Under the pieces are notes generated by a model, which was not told the DNA's origin, searched no databases, and saw only the letters and a list, made by a program, of their open reading frames with translations. The position numbers and the translations under genes are program-made. From IMG/VR virus record IMGVR_UViG_3300042804_000010: a stretch of 36,614 nucleotides of DNA, one strand, 5' to 3'. This stretch comes from a virus. Shown here piece after piece: positions 14,477 through 21,169 of this stretch. The stretch's first letter is position 1, and the number at the start of each line of letters is the position of its first letter.

Positions 14477-15622
14477 ATGCCTCATATTGAAAAAACTGCA
14501 AATGGAAAGTATAAAGCTGTCATTGAAGTTGGCGCCGGCGCCAGGCGAAAAAGAAGAACAAAAACATTCGAAAGAAAAAAAGATGCAAAAAGCTGGCAAG
14601 CTAATATGTTAGTTGATCAAGAAAAAGGCAGATATGTTTCTTCCGCATCATTAACTGTCGGTGATCATATGCTTGACTGGCTGGATAACGAGAAGAAACC
14701 GCACATCGCCACAACTACTTATGATAATTACAAAAACCGTATAAAAACTTATATTATACCCGAAATAGGATATATTCCATTGCAGGAACTGGAGCCCTTC
14801 CATATTAGCCGATTTATGGGCTATTTAAGAAAGAATGGAAGTGTCAGGAATGATGGCGGCCTGTCTGAAAATACTCTCAAGAAAATATATGTAGTGCTTA
14901 ATTCAGCGATGGAAAAGGCAGTCCAGTGGCGGTTAATAAAATATAACCCAGTCCAGGCGATTGAATCACCACAACCGAAAAAGAAAGAAGCTAAGTCAAT
15001 GAGCTTTGAGGAAGTTCAAAAATTACTTGATTCAGTTAACGATAAATTTATGCACACATTTTTGAGTTTTGCTGTCCTTACCGGAATGAGAAAAAGTGAA
15101 ATGCTTGGCCTAGAGTGGTCAGAAGTTGATTTAGAGAATGAAACTGTCGAAGTAAAAAAGCGATTAGTTGTTAATCAAAATAGTGATCAGGGAATTGAGC
15201 ATGAAGAAGCGACAAAGCGAGAAGCCAGCAGAAGAGTGATTGCGATTCCTTCGAAACTGGCAAAAATATTGAAAAATTATAAGGTCCATCAAACAGAATT
15301 AAGGCTGCAGCTGGCGGATGAATATAATGATGAAAAGCAATTTGTTTTCTGTAAGTCTGACGGGAATCCTTATTATCCGTCAACAATTACTAGAAATGCA
15401 AAAAAGGCCATACTCAGAGCTGATTTAAGCTCCGAATACAGCCTTCATACATTGCGCCATACATTCGCTACCTTGCAACTTAAAACCGGGACAGATGCCA
15501 AAACTATACAAGAAATGCTCGGTCATGGGAATATCTCCACTACTATGGATATATACTCTCATGTTGATATTGACATGCAGAAAGAAGCCGCAAAGAAATT
15601 AGAAAATGAGATTGTTATTTAG
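14477..15622 (+). CDS. int: Tyrosine integrase (site-specific recombinase)
   Basis: C-terminal catalytic pattern ...HTLRHTFATLQL...LGHGNISTTMDIYSHV (R...HxxR...Y) and N-terminal SAM-like domain. Confidence 0.85.
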   Translation: MPHIEKTANGKYKAVIEVGAGARRKRRTKTFERKKDAKSWQANMLVDQEKGRYVSSASLTVGDHMLDWLDNEKKPHIATTTYDNYKNRIKTYIIPEIGYIPLQELEPFHISRFMGYLRKNGSVRNDGGLSENTLKKIYVVLNSAMEKAVQWRLIKYNPVQAIESPQPKKKEAKSMSFEEVQKLLDSVNDKFMHTFLSFAVLTGMRKSEMLGLEWSEVDLENETVEVKKRLVVNQNSDQGIEHEEATKREASRRVIAIPSKLAKILKNYKVHQTELRLQLADEYNDEKQFVFCKSDGNPYYPSTITRNAKKAILRADLSSEYSLHTLRHTFATLQLKTGTDAKTIQEMLGHGNISTTMDIYSHVDIDMQKEAAKKLENEIVI

Positions 15623-17511: not shown

Positions 17512-17904
17512 TTATCTATTATCCCATCTTGCTTTGTAACCGCGAACATCACAATGAACAAAACTATTATATTTTCCTATACCATCAAAACCAGCTTTTT
17601 CAGCAAAACTTGCCATTACATCTGCATCAACCCCAGCTGGCAACCTTACATCAGCTGCAGTTCCTTCCAGATGTTGAGATTTTTTTGCACCTCCTATCTT
17701 TTGATTATAAGCTGGAGTTCTGTAGCCTGAGTTAATTATAAGCGGTGTATCTTTACCTTTGTGATCAGAAACTAGCCCTCTCAGTATTTCTAGCTTTTTT
17801 GGAAGCTCTGGGTCTAGCTTAACTGATTGGGTTTCATCCCGGCATTGAAATTCCCTTAAATTAAAATGTTTAGTTATTTGAAAATCATTTACTGACATTT
17901 GCAT
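17512..17904 (-). CDS. Endolysin, peptidase M15 family (zinc D-Ala-D-Ala carboxypeptidase-like)
   Basis: ...FNLREFQCRD...INSGYRTPAYNQKIGGAKKSQHLEGTAADV...HCDVR: His/Asp zinc-ligand pattern of M15 peptidases. Confidence 0.75.
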   Translation of the reverse strand: MQMSVNDFQITKHFNLREFQCRDETQSVKLDPELPKKLEILRGLVSDHKGKDTPLIINSGYRTPAYNQKIGGAKKSQHLEGTAADVRLPAGVDADVMASFAEKAGFDGIGKYNSFVHCDVRGYKARWDNR

Positions 17905-18143
17905 TAACCTCCCATCAATTTTACAGCCATCCCAACAATCATACTAGACATTACAGTTATCATTACTGTAATAGTCCAAGTTGGTCTGCCCTGTAAATTA
18001 TCAATAATTTTAGCTATGTCTTGTTTCATATTTTGTATATCTCCCTCATCAATATTGTTAATATCTTTTTTTAATGATCTTCCAAACTCACATCCTTCTT
18101 TGTTTAGCGTTTCTGGATTGATTTCTGCGTGTCCATTCGCCAT
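17904..18143 (-). CDS. XhlA-like holin-associated membrane protein
   Basis: 79 aa; N-terminal charged/coiled region and C-terminal TM helix WTITVMITVMSSMIVGMAV; abuts the endolysin gene. Confidence 0.55.
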   Translation of the reverse strand: MANGHAEINPETLNKEGCEFGRSLKKDINNIDEGDIQNMKQDIAKIIDNLQGRPTWTITVMITVMSSMIVGMAVKLMGG

Positions 18144-18237: not shown

Positions 18238-19332
18238 CTATATGCTTTTTAATTTTAGCCGGTCGCCTAAATCCAATTGCTCCAGTATATGATCATCTAG
18301 TTTGTTTATCACTGACATTTTTAAATTATAACTATCGCAATGTTTAATTATTCCCAAGTAGGAATTAACACTGGCATTAATATCCTCGATATCCACCTTC
18401 CCTTCAAAATATTTTTTATTAAGATATTTAAATCGCTTTTTCATTTTCTTTTTAGTACTTTTCCTCAATTTGCTATAACTCGGATATAGAACATATCCGC
18501 AAAAATCTATTCCTTCATTCACATGTCCAACAGTAGTTTTATTATTAAGCTGCAGCTGGAGATAATCTTCTAAAAATATTTCTATTTCCTGTCTGATTGT
18601 ATGAAGCTTCTTTTTATCTTTTCCCAAAAGTACAAAGTCATCCATATACCGGACATAGTATTTTACTTTCAAGGTGTGCTTTACAAACTTATCTAAAAAA
18701 TCAAGATAAATATTTGCAAAAAGCTGGCTCATTAAGTTGCCGATTGGTGTGCCAATCCCTTTAACTTTTTTATTTTCAAAGAAGTGATCACCTAACTGGA
18801 TACCAAACTCACCATCTTCACTTTTGATTATCTGCCAGATTAATTCCAATGTATCTCTGCAGCTAATTTTCCTTTTTATTAACTGAAATAATCTTTTATG
18901 AACTATCCTGTAAAAATATTTTGAAACGTCTGCTTTTAAAAAATATGTTTTTCCGGGCTTTCGGTCCATTATCCTTAACTTGTCCTGTAATTGATATGCA
19001 GTGAAATGAGTACCCTTTCCTCTGCGACAAGCCCCGCTATATCTGTAAAATGCCTTATCAAATATCGGGTAAAGCTTTCGATATATGCTCCACTGGACCA
19101 CTCTGTCTTTAAAAGGCAAAGCCATGATCAGTCTTTTCTTTGGCTCATAGACATAAAACTGCCTGTATTTTCCCTGTTCATATGTTTTCCACATTAATTC
19201 ATTCTGTATCTCAATTAAATTTCTCTCTAAATTATAATTAAATTTCAGCACTTCCGGTTTGTATCTTTTCCTCTTTTGAGCTTTTTGAGTTGCTATTTCT
19301 AAATTATGATAATCAGTAATTTTCTCAAACAA
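18238..19332 (-). CDS. Diversity-generating retroelement reverse transcriptase
   Basis: RT motifs FYVYEPKKRLIMALPFKDRVVQ, GTHFTAY, IGTPIGNLMSQLFANIYL (DGR-type SQ in place of the usual QGxxxSP), YVRYMDDFVLLG (YxDD); about 360 aa, as for Bordetella phage Brt; apparent TTG start at 19332. Confidence 0.9.
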   Translation of the reverse strand: MFEKITDYHNLEIATQKAQKRKRYKPEVLKFNYNLERNLIEIQNELMWKTYEQGKYRQFYVYEPKKRLIMALPFKDRVVQWSIYRKLYPIFDKAFYRYSGACRRGKGTHFTAYQLQDKLRIMDRKPGKTYFLKADVSKYFYRIVHKRLFQLIKRKISCRDTLELIWQIIKSEDGEFGIQLGDHFFENKKVKGIGTPIGNLMSQLFANIYLDFLDKFVKHTLKVKYYVRYMDDFVLLGKDKKKLHTIRQEIEIFLEDYLQLQLNNKTTVGHVNEGIDFCGYVLYPSYSKLRKSTKKKMKKRFKYLNKKYFEGKVDIEDINASVNSYLGIIKHCDSYNLKMSVINKLDDHILEQLDLGDRLKLKSI

Positions 19333-19586
19333 ATTTTTGACTGTCTTAGGAATAAATAATCACCACTCTCTATATATTAGGTGAAATATTCAAGCCCGCT
19401 CAAATGAGAACGGGCTCATAACTAATCGTGACAGCTTTCGATATTTCGCTACTTGCTATCTAATTAGTAATTCATATGTTTTCCTGGAGGGACCTCAAAA
19501 TGTATCTCAGGAAGGACTAAAGGCCTGTTCATCTTTTTGAACACTGCAGCAGAGGCCTTGACCCCATACTGTCTGATAAATTTGTA

Positions 19587-19703
19587 GATGAGCACAGGCG
19601 CCACGCACGCCAATGTTAGTGTTCACGTTCCACGGGTTATTGTTCGAGTTGACCGTCCGAGCACCGCAGATGCTACCATTGTTGAAGTTGCCACCGGCGA
19701 GGA
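19587..19703 (-). repeat. DGR template repeat (TR), 117 bp
   Basis: 102 of 117 positions identical to VR (20143-20259); all 15 differences are at TR adenines on the coding strand; carries 11 AAY codons in the VR frame. Confidence 0.9.
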
Positions 19704-19727
19704 CCAACGCCCTTAGCCCTATAAAAT

Positions 19728-20081
19728 TTATTTTTTATTTTCACAAGACTTAATCCAGCCACCCAGAAGGCGGCCAATTTCGTCTATTTTTTTGACTACA
19801 ATTTCATGTTTTCTTATAGATAAAAAATGCATATCTTTAGCAAGTCTAATTTTAACTTTTAGCTTTTTAAGTTCATCATCTATCCGGTTTAAAAATCTTA
19901 TCTTACTTCCTCGAGCTTCATTTGCATCTATTATCAATTCCATAATTCTATCTAATTTATTTTTGATTTTTGTACACATTGCAAACTTTTCTCTTTTTGG
20001 AAAATTATCAATTACTGGGTAAAAATAAAGAGTAAAGTCATAATGTTTTCTAAATATCACGAGATCATCTGTGTCTGCCAA
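19728..20081 (-). CDS. avd: DGR accessory variability determinant (Avd)
   Basis: 117-aa basic helical protein located between the target gene and TR, as in canonical DGRs; TTG start preceded by AAGGAG with a 7-nt spacer. Confidence 0.75.
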   Translation of the reverse strand: MADTDDLVIFRKHYDFTLYFYPVIDNFPKREKFAMCTKIKNKLDRIMELIIDANEARGSKIRFLNRIDDELKKLKVKIRLAKDMHFLSIRKHEIVVKKIDEIGRLLGGWIKSCENKK

Positions 20082-20131
20082 ATCATCACTCCTTCAAGTT
20101 CTAAACCTAACCAAAAACCATTATCAGATTA

Positions 20132-21169
20132 TCAGGCACTCTGATGAGCACAGGCGCCACGCACGCCAACGCTAGTGTTCACGTCCCACGGGCGAAAGTC
20201 CGAGCTGACCGTCCGAGCACCGCAGAGGCCACCACTGCTGAAGCCGCCACCGGCGAGGAGGCCAATAATAGCCACATTATTTTGCATGTAAGCTTCACCA
20301 TGCTGATAACCGCTGTCTTTACCTGCATTAAGCACATCATACCAACTGAATGAAGTTGAGCCAGTATTTCTATAAGTATACTCGTCTAATCTTTCCCAAA
20401 GGTTACCAGCGCAATCTACAAGGTTATAGCAAGAAACTGCTTGTTCTACAGTTCCAGTTGAAGTTCGACCTGAATTACTTGAACTAGACCAAGCGGCATT
20501 ATTATCATTTTCGTGGCCTTCTGGGCTACCATAGGCAGCCATTAACCATTCCTGCCTGGTTAATTTTCTTTTGTTGACATTTGCAAGACCCCTAATGAAA
20601 TCATAATCATTATAACCCTCAGTTCCTGAGACCGGGGTCGCATTGTATTCACTCACAAGTTCAGTTTCCGGCCAGGTTCCGCTGCCTTCACTTGCAATAT
20701 ATATATCAGCCCAAAAGTTTGATACCTTGACCATTCCAGTAGGGTCACAGGCAGGTCTGTAGTTCAATGACCAGACTGAGTTTGGCAGTATATTAACTGC
20801 AATTGAGGCTGTATCATCATATCTTTGAGCGTTTGTTCTGATGCGGCCATAATGAAAACCACCAATTTTTCTGCTATTATTTTCTGTATACCCGTCTGGA
20901 TAAGTAGAGTTGATAGAAATAACAAAATCGGGCTCTGCATCAGCTGATGGCTGCAAAGCATATATATAATAGTTTTCGCCAAGCGTGAAACTTACAAAAC
21001 TGCCGTCGCTATCAGCTTCAGTCAAAATAGTATCAGTTTCTTTTTTGAGATTCTGTCTATCAATTCTCAAAGCTAATGGAGGTACTGTAACTTCATCAGC
21101 TGCACTCTTTTCAATATGGCCTTTGAAATTGTAGAATGAAGGTGAATCAGCTCCAACAAAAGTTAACAT
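20132..21169 (-). CDS. DGR target protein: distal tail/receptor-binding protein with C-terminal C-type-lectin/FGE-like fold carrying the VR
   Basis: C-terminal ...SCYNLVDCAGNLWERLDEY...LLAGGGFSSGGLCGARTVSSDFRPWDVNTSVGVRGACAHQSA; VR occupies the last about 39 codons; last gene of the tail module. Confidence 0.85.
   Translation of the reverse strand: MLTFVGADSPSFYNFKGHIEKSAADEVTVPPLALRIDRQNLKKETDTILTEADSDGSFVSFTLGENYYIYALQPSADAEPDFVISINSTYPDGYTENNSRKIGGFHYGRIRTNAQRYDDTASIAVNILPNSVWSLNYRPACDPTGMVKVSNFWADIYIASEGSGTWPETELVSEYNATPVSGTEGYNDYDFIRGLANVNKRKLTRQEWLMAAYGSPEGHENDNNAAWSSSSNSGRTSTGTVEQAVSCYNLVDCAGNLWERLDEYTYRNTGSTSFSWYDVLNAGKDSGYQHGEAYMQNNVAIIGLLAGGGFSSGGLCGARTVSSDFRPWDVNTSVGVRGACAHQSA
20143..20259 (-). 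repeat. DGR variable repeat (VR), 117 bp, at the 3' end of the target gene
   Basis: Aligns to TR 19587-19703; the coding-strand 3' end is a GC-rich invariant segment ggcgtgcgtggcgcctgtgctcatc (IMH-like). Confidence 0.9.

What the first reader, a model, noticed from the sequence alone, without database searches (positions are those of the whole stretch)
19333..20100. avd and the RT both appear to start at TTG; the TR-RT spacer contains two hairpins
No in-frame ATG is available upstream of the conserved RT N-terminus (an in-frame stop lies at 19360-19362), and avd begins at TTG after an AAGGAG RBS, suggesting deliberately low translation. The 254-bp spacer between TR and RT contains agcccgctcaaatgagaacgggct (19393-19416, stem with a 2-nt bulge) and aaggcct...aggcctt (19520-19526 / 19552-19558), candidates for the structured DGR RNA that primes cDNA synthesis.
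Basis: seen in the sequence. Interest (0 to 1): 0.5.

Follow-up and report, generated by a model that had tools for sequence, protein, structure and literature searches.

The report
DGR spacer RNA; reverse transcriptase starts at AUU
The stretch between the template repeat and the reverse-transcriptase gene of this phage's diversity-generating retroelement is a known type of structured priming RNA (Rfam RT-14), not the two hairpins proposed, and the reverse transcriptase most likely starts at a rare AUU codon behind a terminator-like hairpin, which suggests it is made in very small amounts.

Summary
The window holds a complete phage DGR on the minus strand: an Mtd-like target gene with VR, then avd, TR, a spacer and the RT. 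All 15 TR/VR differences fall at TR adenines.

- **avd start:** UUG (20081), 7 nt after AAGGAG, is confirmed and conserved in relatives.
- **RT start:** probably not UUG (19332). The seven codons upstream (AUU CCU AAG ACA GUC AAA AAU) change only synonymously in relatives. They follow a strong Shine-Dalgarno site and line up with residues 1-7 of the solved Bordetella bRT. UUG is replaced by AUU, UUA or AUA in relatives, whereas AUU/AUC-CCN is kept. The likely start is AUU at 19353.
- **Spacer 19589-19422:** a divergent Rfam RT-14 RNA. Covariation supports a hairpin next to TR, a helix between the TR 3' end and the spacer, a 12-bp long-range duplex with the sequence just upstream of TR, a short hairpin followed by an A-run, and a long 3' stem-loop. 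This is the architecture solved for the Bordetella phage DGR RNA.
no comparative support.
real and covarying, but outside the conserved RNA. It is specific to this clade and terminator-like.

This is a new member of a known kind. The non-canonical RT start is the one modest novelty.

The parts
20143..20259 (-). VR at the 3' end of the Mtd-like target gene (21169..20132)
   Evidence: The VR and TR repeats are 117 nt with 15 mismatches, all at TR adenines. The target protein matches Pfam Mtd second domain.
20089..20094 (-). Shine-Dalgarno AAGGAG of avd
   Evidence: It lies 7 nt upstream of the UUG. Predicted pairing with the 16S tail is -12.7 kcal/mol.
19728..20081 (-). avd, starting at UUG 20081..20079
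   Evidence: NCBIfam DivGenRetAVD scores 105 bits (cut-off 80) and Pfam bAvd matches. The UUG and the SD are kept in clade members down to 69% Avd identity, with synonymous changes just after the start.
19709..19720 (-). AGGGCUAAGGGC, the 5' strand of the long-range duplex. It sits between the avd stop and TR and corresponds to the 'cPRT stop' duplex of the Bordetella phage DGR RNA.
   Evidence: It pairs with 19524..19513. Across 29 loci the 12 pairs are 98.6% paired and 9 pairs show changes on both sides. The MFE fold of the 341-nt RNA recovers it independently.
19587..19703 (-). TR (template repeat)
19586..19599 (-). GCCUGU-gc-UCAUCU at the 3' end of TR, the 5' strand of the putative template:primer helix
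   Evidence: It pairs with 19534..19523 in the MFE fold of the spacer. The equivalent helix covaries in relatives: cognate -7.8 against non-cognate -4.9 kcal/mol, with 0 of 20000 permutations as good.
19547..19571 (-). P1 hairpin, CAGUA(u)GGGGU-CAAG-GCCUCUGCUG, just 3' of TR. Its position and shape match the Avd-binding stem-loop.
   Evidence: It is the inner stem of Rfam RT-14. All 8 pairs covary across relatives.
19523..19534 (-). AGAUGAACAGGC, the putative primer strand of the spacer
   Evidence: The priming nucleotide itself is not identified.
19513..19524 (-). GCCUUUAGUCCU, the 3' strand of the long-range duplex
   Evidence: (helix 1)
19482..19512 (-). P2 short hairpin (CCUG...CAGG), carrying a clade-specific insertion of about 19 nt
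   Evidence: (helix 3)
19468..19482 (-). Conserved A-run and single-stranded AAAACAUAUGAAUUA. In position it is analogous to the A-minor adenosines and 'thumb ring' of the Bordetella RNA.
   Evidence: AAAAA.UGAAUU is conserved across relatives. The assignment rests only on analogy.
19422..19467 (-). P3 long stem-loop with internal loops, positionally equivalent to the RT-binding stem-loop
   Evidence: All 11 counted pairs covary, and the 5 closing pairs are 100% paired. It marks the end of the Rfam RT-14 hit and of the custom-model hit.
19392..19417 (-).
   Evidence: 100% paired in 12 distinct sequences, with 3 pairs showing compensatory changes. It is absent from L016, L076 and all more distant relatives. 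In Halanaerobium relatives it is followed by UUUUCUUUU.
19380..19384 (-). UCACC, complementary to the RT Shine-Dalgarno core (putative anti-SD)
   Evidence: It pairs with 19364..19360 in MFE folds of the window and its relatives. It is invariant in the clade, so covariation cannot test it.
19360..19364 (-). GGUGA, core of the RT Shine-Dalgarno site (GAGAGUGGUGAU). It contains the in-frame UGA stop.
   Evidence: Predicted pairing with the 16S tail is -15.2 kcal/mol upstream of AUU and -1.6 upstream of the UUG.
18238..19353 (-). RT gene, with AUU 19353..19351 as the proposed initiation codon (371 codons)
19330..19332 (-). It is most likely internal Leu codon 8.
   Evidence: It has no SD. Relatives carry AUU, UUA or AUA here.

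Best explanation
The region is the non-coding core of a phage DGR, probably from a phage of Halanaerobium-like hosts. The order on the minus strand is avd, TR, a spacer RNA, then the RT.

**The spacer RNA.** The spacer (19589..19422) is a divergent member of the Rfam RT-14 family. It has the same set of elements, in the same order, as the Bordetella phage BPP-1 DGR RNA solved by cryo-EM:
1. a hairpin directly 3' of TR (the Avd-binding position);
2. a helix between the 3' end of TR and a spacer strand, which would place the spacer as cis-primer on the template;
3. a 12-bp long-range duplex between the next spacer strand and the 12 nt just upstream of TR (the 'stop' duplex that brackets the template);
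4. a short hairpin followed by an A-run;
5. a conserved single-stranded stretch;
6. a long stem-loop (the RT-binding position).

The helices are shown by covariation. Protein binding and 2'-OH cis-priming are inferred by analogy.

**Three features between this RNA and the RT coding sequence.** Together they should keep RT synthesis low:
- a UCACC element able to pair with the RT Shine-Dalgarno core;
- initiation at AUU (19353), a near-cognate start codon, not at the UUG seven codons downstream.

avd starts at UUG behind a good Shine-Dalgarno site.
For: **It is a DGR.**
- All 15 TR/VR mismatches are at TR adenines.
- Avd scores above its NCBIfam cut-off, the target has an Mtd domain and the RT matches RVT_1.
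- The RT matches the solved bRT (8ub7) at E = 6e-54.

**The spacer is an RT-14 RNA.**
- Rfam RT-14 hits 19589..19422 with 44.2 bits, E = 6.5e-4.
- 15 of 20 RT-homologue loci carry RT-14 above its gathering score at the same place, starting where the TR homology ends.
- A model built only from 14 relatives, excluding the window clade, finds exactly one hit in the 36.6-kb window: the same coordinates, 56.4 bits, E about 8e-14.

**The structure is supported.**
- 93.5% of cells are paired, 31 of 35 pairs show changes on both sides, and the covariation score is 0.744 against 0.253 in shuffles (0/500) and at most 0.18 when the partner is slid.
- This count includes the long-range duplex.
- The helix between the TR end and the spacer is supported by a permutation test, 0 of 20000.
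- The MFE fold of the 341-nt RNA recovers the long-range duplex, P1, P2, P3 and hairpin 1.
- The architecture was compared (bioRxiv 10.1101/2023.10.23.563531).

**The start is AUU.**
- The codons AUU-CCU-AAG-ACA-GUC-AAA-AAU change synonymously in L011 (AUC CCG AAA), and the Pro codon varies among CCU, CCG and CCA across relatives.
- In-frame stops, or reading frames with no canonical start codon, lie just upstream in every lineage.
- AUU/AUC-CCN is kept down to 64% RT identity, while position 8 is UUG, AUU, UUA or AUA.
- SD pairing is -15.2 kcal/mol for AUU against -1.6 for UUG.
- More distant homologues have AUG-CCA-AAG at the same position.
- bRT residue 3 aligns with residue 3 of the AUU-started protein.

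**Hairpin 1:**
Against: - The Rfam RT-14 score is below the curated gathering cut-off (44.2 against 48.1 bits).
- The outer seven pairs of the Rfam outer stem are mostly unpaired in the window (five of seven are non-standard). The equivalent helix is displaced by about 7 nt.
- In the 341-nt MFE fold a local hairpin (GUUCA/UGAAC) replaces the helix between the TR end and the spacer.
- The primer strand and the long-range strand overlap by 2 nt. The priming nucleotide cannot be named.
- No direct evidence exists for initiation at AUU. UUG 19332 is conserved in all clade members that are at least 92% identical.
- The U-tract after hairpin 1 is poor in the window (UUGAAUAUUU), and the terminator scan did not flag it.
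- The anti-SD pairing is invariant, so covariation cannot test it.
Confidence: 0.75

Rival explanations
1. The RT starts at UUG 19332. The seven upstream codons are untranslated leader.
For: It is the first canonical start codon after the in-frame stop. It is conserved in all clade members that are at least 92% identical.
Against: - There is no Shine-Dalgarno site: -1.6 kcal/mol, against -11 to -18 for other genes in the window.
- Relatives at 64-73% identity carry AUU, UUA or AUA at this position and have no other canonical start.
- The upstream codons show synonymous-only change, and the peptide (I)PK[TK][VIF][KR]N is conserved.
- A UUG start would remove residues that align with bRT residues 1-7.
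Confidence: 0.12
2. Hairpin 1 (19417..19392) is not a terminator. It is instead an extra structural element of the ribonucleoprotein, an RNA 3'-end stabiliser, or an insulator that keeps ribosomes and the RT leader from disturbing the folded spacer RNA.
For: - The U-tract is degenerate throughout the window clade, yet the stem is strictly maintained with compensatory changes.
- The terminator scan does not call it.
Against: - In L014, L080, L081, L082 and L107 the homologous hairpin is followed by UUUUCUUUU, a canonical intrinsic terminator.
- Half of the more distant relatives have a U-run directly after P3, which suggests that termination at this position is a shared theme.
- The hairpin is absent from most family members, so it is not part of the core RNP.
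Confidence: 0.3
3. The AAGGCCU/AGGCCUU hairpin (19559..19553 with 19526..19520) forms and acts as part of the priming structure or as an alternative conformer.
For: It is a perfect 7-bp complement in the window and its close clade.
Against: - 50.7% of cells are paired across relatives, the same as shuffles, with no covariation.
- The complement is lost in L016 and L076.
- It is never chosen in the MFE or centroid folds.
- It is mutually exclusive with P1, the primer strand and the long-range duplex, all of which covary.
- A 7-nt inverted repeat is expected by chance.
Confidence: 0.04

Closest known systems
Rfam RT-14 RNA (RF02921; Weinberg et al. 2017, PMC5737381)
   Same: Same position, immediately upstream of an RT gene. 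Same P1, P2 and P3 layout and the same conserved single-stranded blocks. Relatives of this RT carry RT-14 above the gathering score.
   Different: The window scores 44.2 bits, below the 48.1-bit cut-off. It has a bulged U in P1, an insertion of about 19 nt in P2, and a displaced outer helix. The 2017 paper gave RT-14 no function; it assigned only RT-10 to a DGR. Here RT-14 is shown to begin exactly where the TR homology ends in DGRs, and to have a partner strand upstream of TR that lies outside the Rfam model.
Bordetella phage BPP-1 DGR RNA (avd 3' end + TR + 140-nt spacer; Handa et al., bioRxiv 10.1101/2023.10.23.563531; Rfam RT-10)
   Same: The same order of elements after TR: a hairpin at the Avd-binding position, a TR:spacer helix, a spacer duplex with the sequence upstream of TR, a short hairpin plus adenosines, a single-stranded stretch, and a long stem-loop next to the RT gene. 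Total length is similar (about 165 nt against 140 nt). The RT is 371 residues and aligns from residue 3 with bRT.
   Different: There is no detectable sequence similarity to RT-10: no Rfam hit. The upstream partner of the long-range duplex lies in the 24-nt gap between the avd stop and TR, not inside the avd coding sequence. An additional terminator-like hairpin and about 40 nt separate the long stem-loop from the RT start. Priming, protein binding and termination of cDNA synthesis are untested here.
Genes initiated at AUU (the infC type; from general knowledge, not tested here)
   Same: A near-cognate AUU start behind a good Shine-Dalgarno site, conserved across relatives. This implies low translation that is sensitive to initiation-factor discrimination.
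   Different: There is no evidence of IF3-linked autoregulation. Relatives use AUC as well as AUU. The protein is a retroelement RT, not a translation factor.
Rho-independent (intrinsic) terminators
   Same: A 10-bp G+C-rich stem of -17.5 kcal/mol with a 6-nt loop. Homologues are followed by UUUUCUUUU.
   Different: In the window the tail is UUGAAUAUUU, so termination is expected to be weak at best.

Membership tests
Diversity-generating retroelement (DGR) | TR/VR repeat pair whose differences fall at TR adenines | tested here: met
   The repeats are 117 nt, with 15 of 15 mismatches at TR adenines.
Diversity-generating retroelement (DGR) | DGR-clade reverse transcriptase next to TR | tested here: met
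   The best PDB match is BPP-1 bRT (8ub7_A), E = 6.3e-54, colinear from residue 3. Pfam RVT_1 matches. The IGxxxSQ and YMDD motifs are visible in the translation.
Diversity-generating retroelement (DGR) | Accessory protein Avd | tested here: met
   NCBIfam DivGenRetAVD scores 105.2 bits against a cut-off of 80. Pfam bAvd scores 98 bits.
Rfam RT-14 (RF02921) | Covariance-model score at or above the gathering cut-off (48.1 bits) | tested here: not met
   The score is 44.2 bits, E = 6.5e-4 in a 4.5-kb search. L014, a close relative of the window clade, scores 50.4.
Rfam RT-14 (RF02921) | Homologous RNA at the same locus, recognised by a model built from undisputed members | tested here: met
   A model built from 14 loci that pass Rfam's cut-off gives a single hit in the whole window, at 19589..19422, with 56.4 bits and E about 8e-14.
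Rfam RT-14 (RF02921) | P1, P2 and P3 helices maintained by covariation | tested here: met
BPP-1-type DGR RNA architecture | Hairpin immediately 3' of TR (Avd-binding stem-loop) | tested here: met
   P1 at 19571..19547 begins 15 nt after the end of the TR homology, and all 8 pairs covary. Avd binding itself cannot be tested.
BPP-1-type DGR RNA architecture | Duplex between the 3' end of TR and a spacer strand (template:primer) | tested here: met
   The window helix is GCCUGU/UCAUCU paired with AGAUGA/ACAGGC. Cognate pairs beat non-cognate pairs in the permutation test, 0 of 20000. With wide sequence windows the test was only marginal (p = 0.048).
BPP-1-type DGR RNA architecture | Duplex between the spacer and the sequence upstream of TR ('cPRT stop') | tested here: met
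   12 pairs, 98.6% paired, 9 of them covarying. The MFE fold recovers it.
BPP-1-type DGR RNA architecture | cis-priming from a spacer 2'-OH and RT-Avd dependence | not testable with these tools
   Requires biochemistry. The priming nucleotide was not identified.
Intrinsic terminator | G+C-rich hairpin directly followed by a U-tract | tested here: inconclusive
   The stem criterion is met. The tail is UUGAAUAUUU in the window and the scan did not call it. Homologues have UUUUCUUUU.
Non-AUG (AUU/AUC) initiated gene | Shine-Dalgarno site at correct spacing, no usable canonical start, coding conservation beginning at the AUY codon | tested here: met
   Actual initiation cannot be tested here.

The most novel reading that the evidence does not exclude
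In this Halanaerobium-associated DGR lineage the RT is deliberately throttled at three levels: an attenuating terminator after the spacer RNA, an anti-SD element, and an AUU/AUC start codon kept over more than 35% protein divergence. In some relatives avd appears to be started at AUU as well. More speculatively, assembly of the RT-Avd RNP on the stem-loop just upstream of the RBS might feed back on RT translation, as group II intron proteins do at their DIVa binding site. The near-cognate start would also make RT output sensitive to the cell's initiation-factor state, which would tie the rate of diversification to host physiology.
Probability: 0.2. Interest if true: 0.6.

Novelty: new member of a known kind. 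Interest (0 to 1): 0.35.

Why it matters
- It assigns a function to an orphan Rfam motif. RT-14 is the spacer RNA of a large group of DGRs, mostly from Bacillota and their phages. Its helices extend to a partner strand upstream of TR that the Rfam model does not cover.
- It supports the claim that the BPP-1 RNP architecture is general.
- Gene callers will place the start of this RT at the wrong codon, or truncate it. The conserved AUU/AUC start, with the terminator-like hairpin, gives a concrete and testable handle on how DGRs keep a mutagenic reverse transcriptase at low levels.

Tried and rejected
- **Nucleotide search of phage genomes** with the whole cassette gave only short hits of about 71% identity inside RT genes (Bacillus phage BalMu-1 and Pseudoalteromonas phages), so it supplied no useful context.
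- **RNAduplex test with wide sequence windows** for the helix between the TR end and the spacer was only marginal (p = 0.048). G/C-rich conserved TR sequence pairs promiscuously. Narrowing the windows to the segments flanking P1 gave a clear result.
- **RNAalifold on the MAFFT alignment** proposed a local GGG/CCC hairpin inside the long-range strand. It never varies, so I replaced it with the covarying long-range duplex.
- **P1 with the window's bulge register** does not transfer to relatives, so I used the majority register.
- **Literature searches** for start-codon usage in DGR RTs, and for Halanaerobium DGRs, found nothing relevant.
- **SNORD52 and sR5 hits** are chance matches.
- **A 9-codon AUG ORF inside hairpin 1** (MSPFSFERA) is not conserved in L001 or L014, so I dismissed it as a leader peptide.
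- **No sigma-70-like promoter** was found between hairpin 1 and the RT.

Full report
**Context.** All relevant genes lie on the minus strand. In order they are:
- an Mtd-like target gene, 21169..20132, which matches Pfam Mtd second domain;
- VR, 20259..20143;
- avd, 20081..19728;
- a 24-nt gap;
- TR, 19703..19587;
- a non-coding spacer;
- the RT ORF, ending at 18238.

TR and VR are 117 nt and differ at 15 positions, all of them adenines in TR. Avd scores above the NCBIfam DivGenRetAVD cut-off. The best solved relative of the RT is the Bordetella phage bRT, 8ub7, at E = 6e-54. This is a bona fide DGR. The closest RT genes in genomes are in Halanaerobium saccharolyticum and a Halanaerobiales MAG, at 69-73% identity.

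**Checking the observation.** The in-frame stop (19362..19360), the absence of an ATG, the TTG at 19332, the avd TTG at 20081 after AAGGAG, and the 254-nt distance are all confirmed. Hairpin 1 is better than described. It is a 10-bp stem that includes two G-U pairs, needs no bulge, and has a free energy of -17.5 kcal/mol. Hairpin 2 is a 7-nt inverted repeat around GGCC, and 59% of shuffles of the spacer contain at least one such repeat.

**What the spacer is.**
- A scan of Rfam gave one meaningful hit: RT-14 (RF02921) at 19589..19422 on the minus strand, 44.2 bits, E = 6.5e-4. This is just below the 48.1-bit gathering cut-off.
- I collected 79 viral, 18 genomic and 61 metagenomic loci that encode relatives of the RT.
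- In 15 of 20 diverse viral loci, RT-14 scores above its cut-off directly upstream of the RT. Its first position coincides, to within a few bases, with the end of the TR/VR homology, which I mapped independently in each locus.
- A covariance model built only from 14 of those loci, with no member of the window clade, finds a single hit in the whole 36.6-kb window. The hit has the same coordinates, 56.4 bits and E about 8e-14.
- The spacer is therefore a divergent RT-14 RNA. Weinberg et al. described RT-1 to RT-19 as motifs near RT genes. They linked only RT-10 to a DGR, that of BPP-1, and speculated that others might also work in DGRs.

**Structure.** I concatenated three pieces for each of 29 distinct loci and aligned them: the 40 nt upstream of TR plus the first 4 nt of TR, the last 22 nt of TR, and the spacer.
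- A structure was tested that combines P1, P2, the two lower helices of P3, and a 12-bp long-range duplex. The duplex joins the segment just upstream of TR (window AGGGCUAAGGGC, 19720..19709) to the spacer strand just 5' of P2 (GCCUUUAGUCCU, 19524..19513).
- This structure is 93.5% paired. Changes on both sides occur in 31 of 35 pairs. The covariation score is 0.744, against 0.253 in shuffles (0/500) and at most 0.18 when the partner is slid.
- The long-range duplex alone is 98.6% paired, and 9 of its 12 pairs covary.
- A further helix joins the sequence at the 3' end of TR to the spacer strand that follows P1. In the window it is GCCUGU-gc-UCAUCU (19599..19586) paired with AGAUGA-ACAGGC (19534..19523). 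Its register shifts between clades, so I tested it by duplex energies. Cognate partners average -7.8 kcal/mol and non-cognate partners -4.9, and none of 20000 permutations did as well.
- Thermodynamic folding of the full 341-nt RNA independently recovers the long-range duplex, P1, P2, P3 and hairpin 1.

**Comparison with the solved DGR RNA.** In the BPP-1 RNP the spacer provides, in order:
1. an Avd-binding stem-loop right after TR;
2. a primer strand paired to the 3' end of TR;
3. a strand paired to the sequence upstream of TR (the 'cPRT stop');
4. a short stem-loop followed by adenosines that make A-minor contacts;
5. a single-stranded 'thumb ring';
6. a long RT-binding stem-loop next to the RT gene.

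The window's RNA has an element at each of these positions in the same order. P2 is followed by AAAA, then by the conserved single strand AUAUGAAUUA, then by P3. Handa et al. had already predicted Avd-binding hairpins and stop duplexes in 207 DGRs, including some from Bacillota, so this is confirmation rather than discovery. What is shown here is the set of helices. Protein binding, 2'-OH priming and termination of cDNA synthesis are inferred. I could not name the priming nucleotide, and the primer strand and the long-range strand overlap by 2 nt.

The arms of hairpin 2 are the loop and 3' arm of P1 on one side and the junction of the primer strand with the long-range strand on the other. Across relatives it is 50.7% paired, the same as shuffles (49.6%), with no covariation. 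It is absent in L016 and L076. It is not supported.

Hairpin 1 lies outside RT-14, between P3 and the RT ribosome-binding site. It occurs only in the window clade and its Halanaerobium relatives. There it is 100% paired in 12 distinct sequences, and three pairs show compensatory changes. In L014, L080, L081, L082 and L107 it is followed by UUUUCUUUU, which makes it a canonical intrinsic terminator. In the window the tail is UUGAAUAUUU, and the consensus scan did not call it. In 13 of 26 more distant lineages a U-run of four or more follows P3 directly, so attenuation between the spacer RNA and the RT may be common. My best reading is a leaky terminator, with a confidence of about 0.5.

Just downstream, UCACC (19384..19380) can pair with the SD core GGUGA (19364..19360). 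This pairing is invariant and so cannot be tested by covariation. MFE folds of L017 and L021 also pair the RT SD with an upstream complementary stretch.

**Start codons.**
- *avd:* UUG 20081, 7 nt after AAGGAG, has a predicted SD pairing of -12.7 kcal/mol. It is conserved in clade members down to 69% Avd identity, with synonymous changes right after it. The Avd profiles begin at residue 7. This start is confirmed.
- *RT, distant homologues:* they start six or seven codons upstream of the position of the window's UUG, for example M-K-K-L-K-N-L-Y or M-P-K-....
- *RT, window:* the corresponding codons are AUU CCU AAG ACA GUC AAA AAU. L011 differs there only by three synonymous changes (AUC CCG AAA). 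The Pro codon is CCU, CCG or CCA in different lineages. The peptide (I)PK[TK][VIF][KR]N[LI][FY] is conserved.
- *RT, upstream frame:* immediately upstream there is either an in-frame stop or an open frame with no ATG, GTG or TTG.
- *RT, position 8:* the UUG becomes AUU, UUA or AUA in relatives at 64-73% identity.
- *RT, SD:* pairing is -15.2 kcal/mol before the AUU and -1.6 before the UUG. Other genes in the window range from -11 to -18.5.
- *RT, solved homologue:* bRT aligns residue 3 to residue 3 of the AUU-started protein.

I conclude that translation starts at AUU 19353 (confidence about 0.8), and at AUC in some relatives. Across about 66 distinct N-terminal groups of this RT family the inferred starts are ATG 31, TTG 18 and ATT/ATC 12, plus one group each with CTG, GTA and ATA as the best-scoring candidate. 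All 12 ATT/ATC groups lie in the window's lineage. In L014, L080 and L082 avd also appears to start at AUU.

**Verdict.** This is an ordinary, complete DGR whose spacer is a known RNA class with the expected architecture. Of the two proposed hairpins, one is a chance palindrome and the other is a real, clade-specific, terminator-like element. The RT start codon was mis-assigned. The conserved AUU/AUC start is, as far as my literature searches show, undescribed for DGRs and is the only mildly novel point.

Noticed in passing
window 20082-20142 (minus strand, between VR and avd): There is no G+C-rich hairpin/cruciform with a GRNA loop downstream of VR. The region folds no better than shuffles (z = 0.11) and instead carries a tandem CTGATAAT CTGATAAT. 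Most relatives have, for example, GGGCGGGCGATAGCCCGCCC at this position. Guo et al. 2011 (PMC3240598) report that such hairpins are nearly always present and are needed for efficient homing.
   Followed up: partly
L014:1344-1420, L080:910-990, L082:2292-2370: In these Halanaerobium DGRs the avd reading frame opens after a TGA stop with ATT AAG AAC TTA (IKNLTIQ...), behind GGGGTG. No ATG, GTG or TTG occurs near the conserved N-terminus; L080 even lacks the downstream ATG. avd may therefore also start at AUU there.
   Followed up: partly
L039:2960-3001: GTA occupies the conserved RT start position (GTA AAA AAA CTA AAG GGA) after the SD GGCGGTGA. The only canonical alternative is a TTG five codons upstream with no SD.
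   Followed up: no
loci L017, L019, L021, L039, L049, L068, L070 and others, just 3' of the RT-14 hit: In 13 of 26 distinct lineages a U-run of at least 4 follows the 3' end of the long P3 stem within 12 nt (mean U content 37%, against 21% in the RNA body). P3 may therefore double as an intrinsic terminator in front of the RT. MFE folds of L017 and L021 also pair the RT SD with an upstream complementary stretch (CCUCU/AGAGG and CACCUU/AAGGUG).
   Followed up: partly
window 19490-19506 (P2 insertion): The window clade, L014, L016, L076 and a few other relatives carry an insertion of roughly 10-25 nt in the loop of the short P2 hairpin. Within the window clade there is a GAG insertion/deletion polymorphism (UUUUGAGGUCC against UUUUGUCC).
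   Followed up: no
window 20035-20093 (minus strand): A sub-threshold Rfam 'SNORD52' match (24.7 bits) covers the avd SD and start. It is caused by the sequence GGAGUGAUGAUUUGGCAGAC, which resembles a C box, and is a chance match in a phage.
   Followed up: yes
window 14477-15622 (+) and 17512-18143 (-): An integrase-like ORF (381 aa) and, directly downstream of the RT, two small ORFs (130 and 79 aa) that may be lysis genes suggest a temperate phage with the DGR at the end of the tail-fibre module. Related contigs are viral contigs of 30-47 kb.
   Followed up: no
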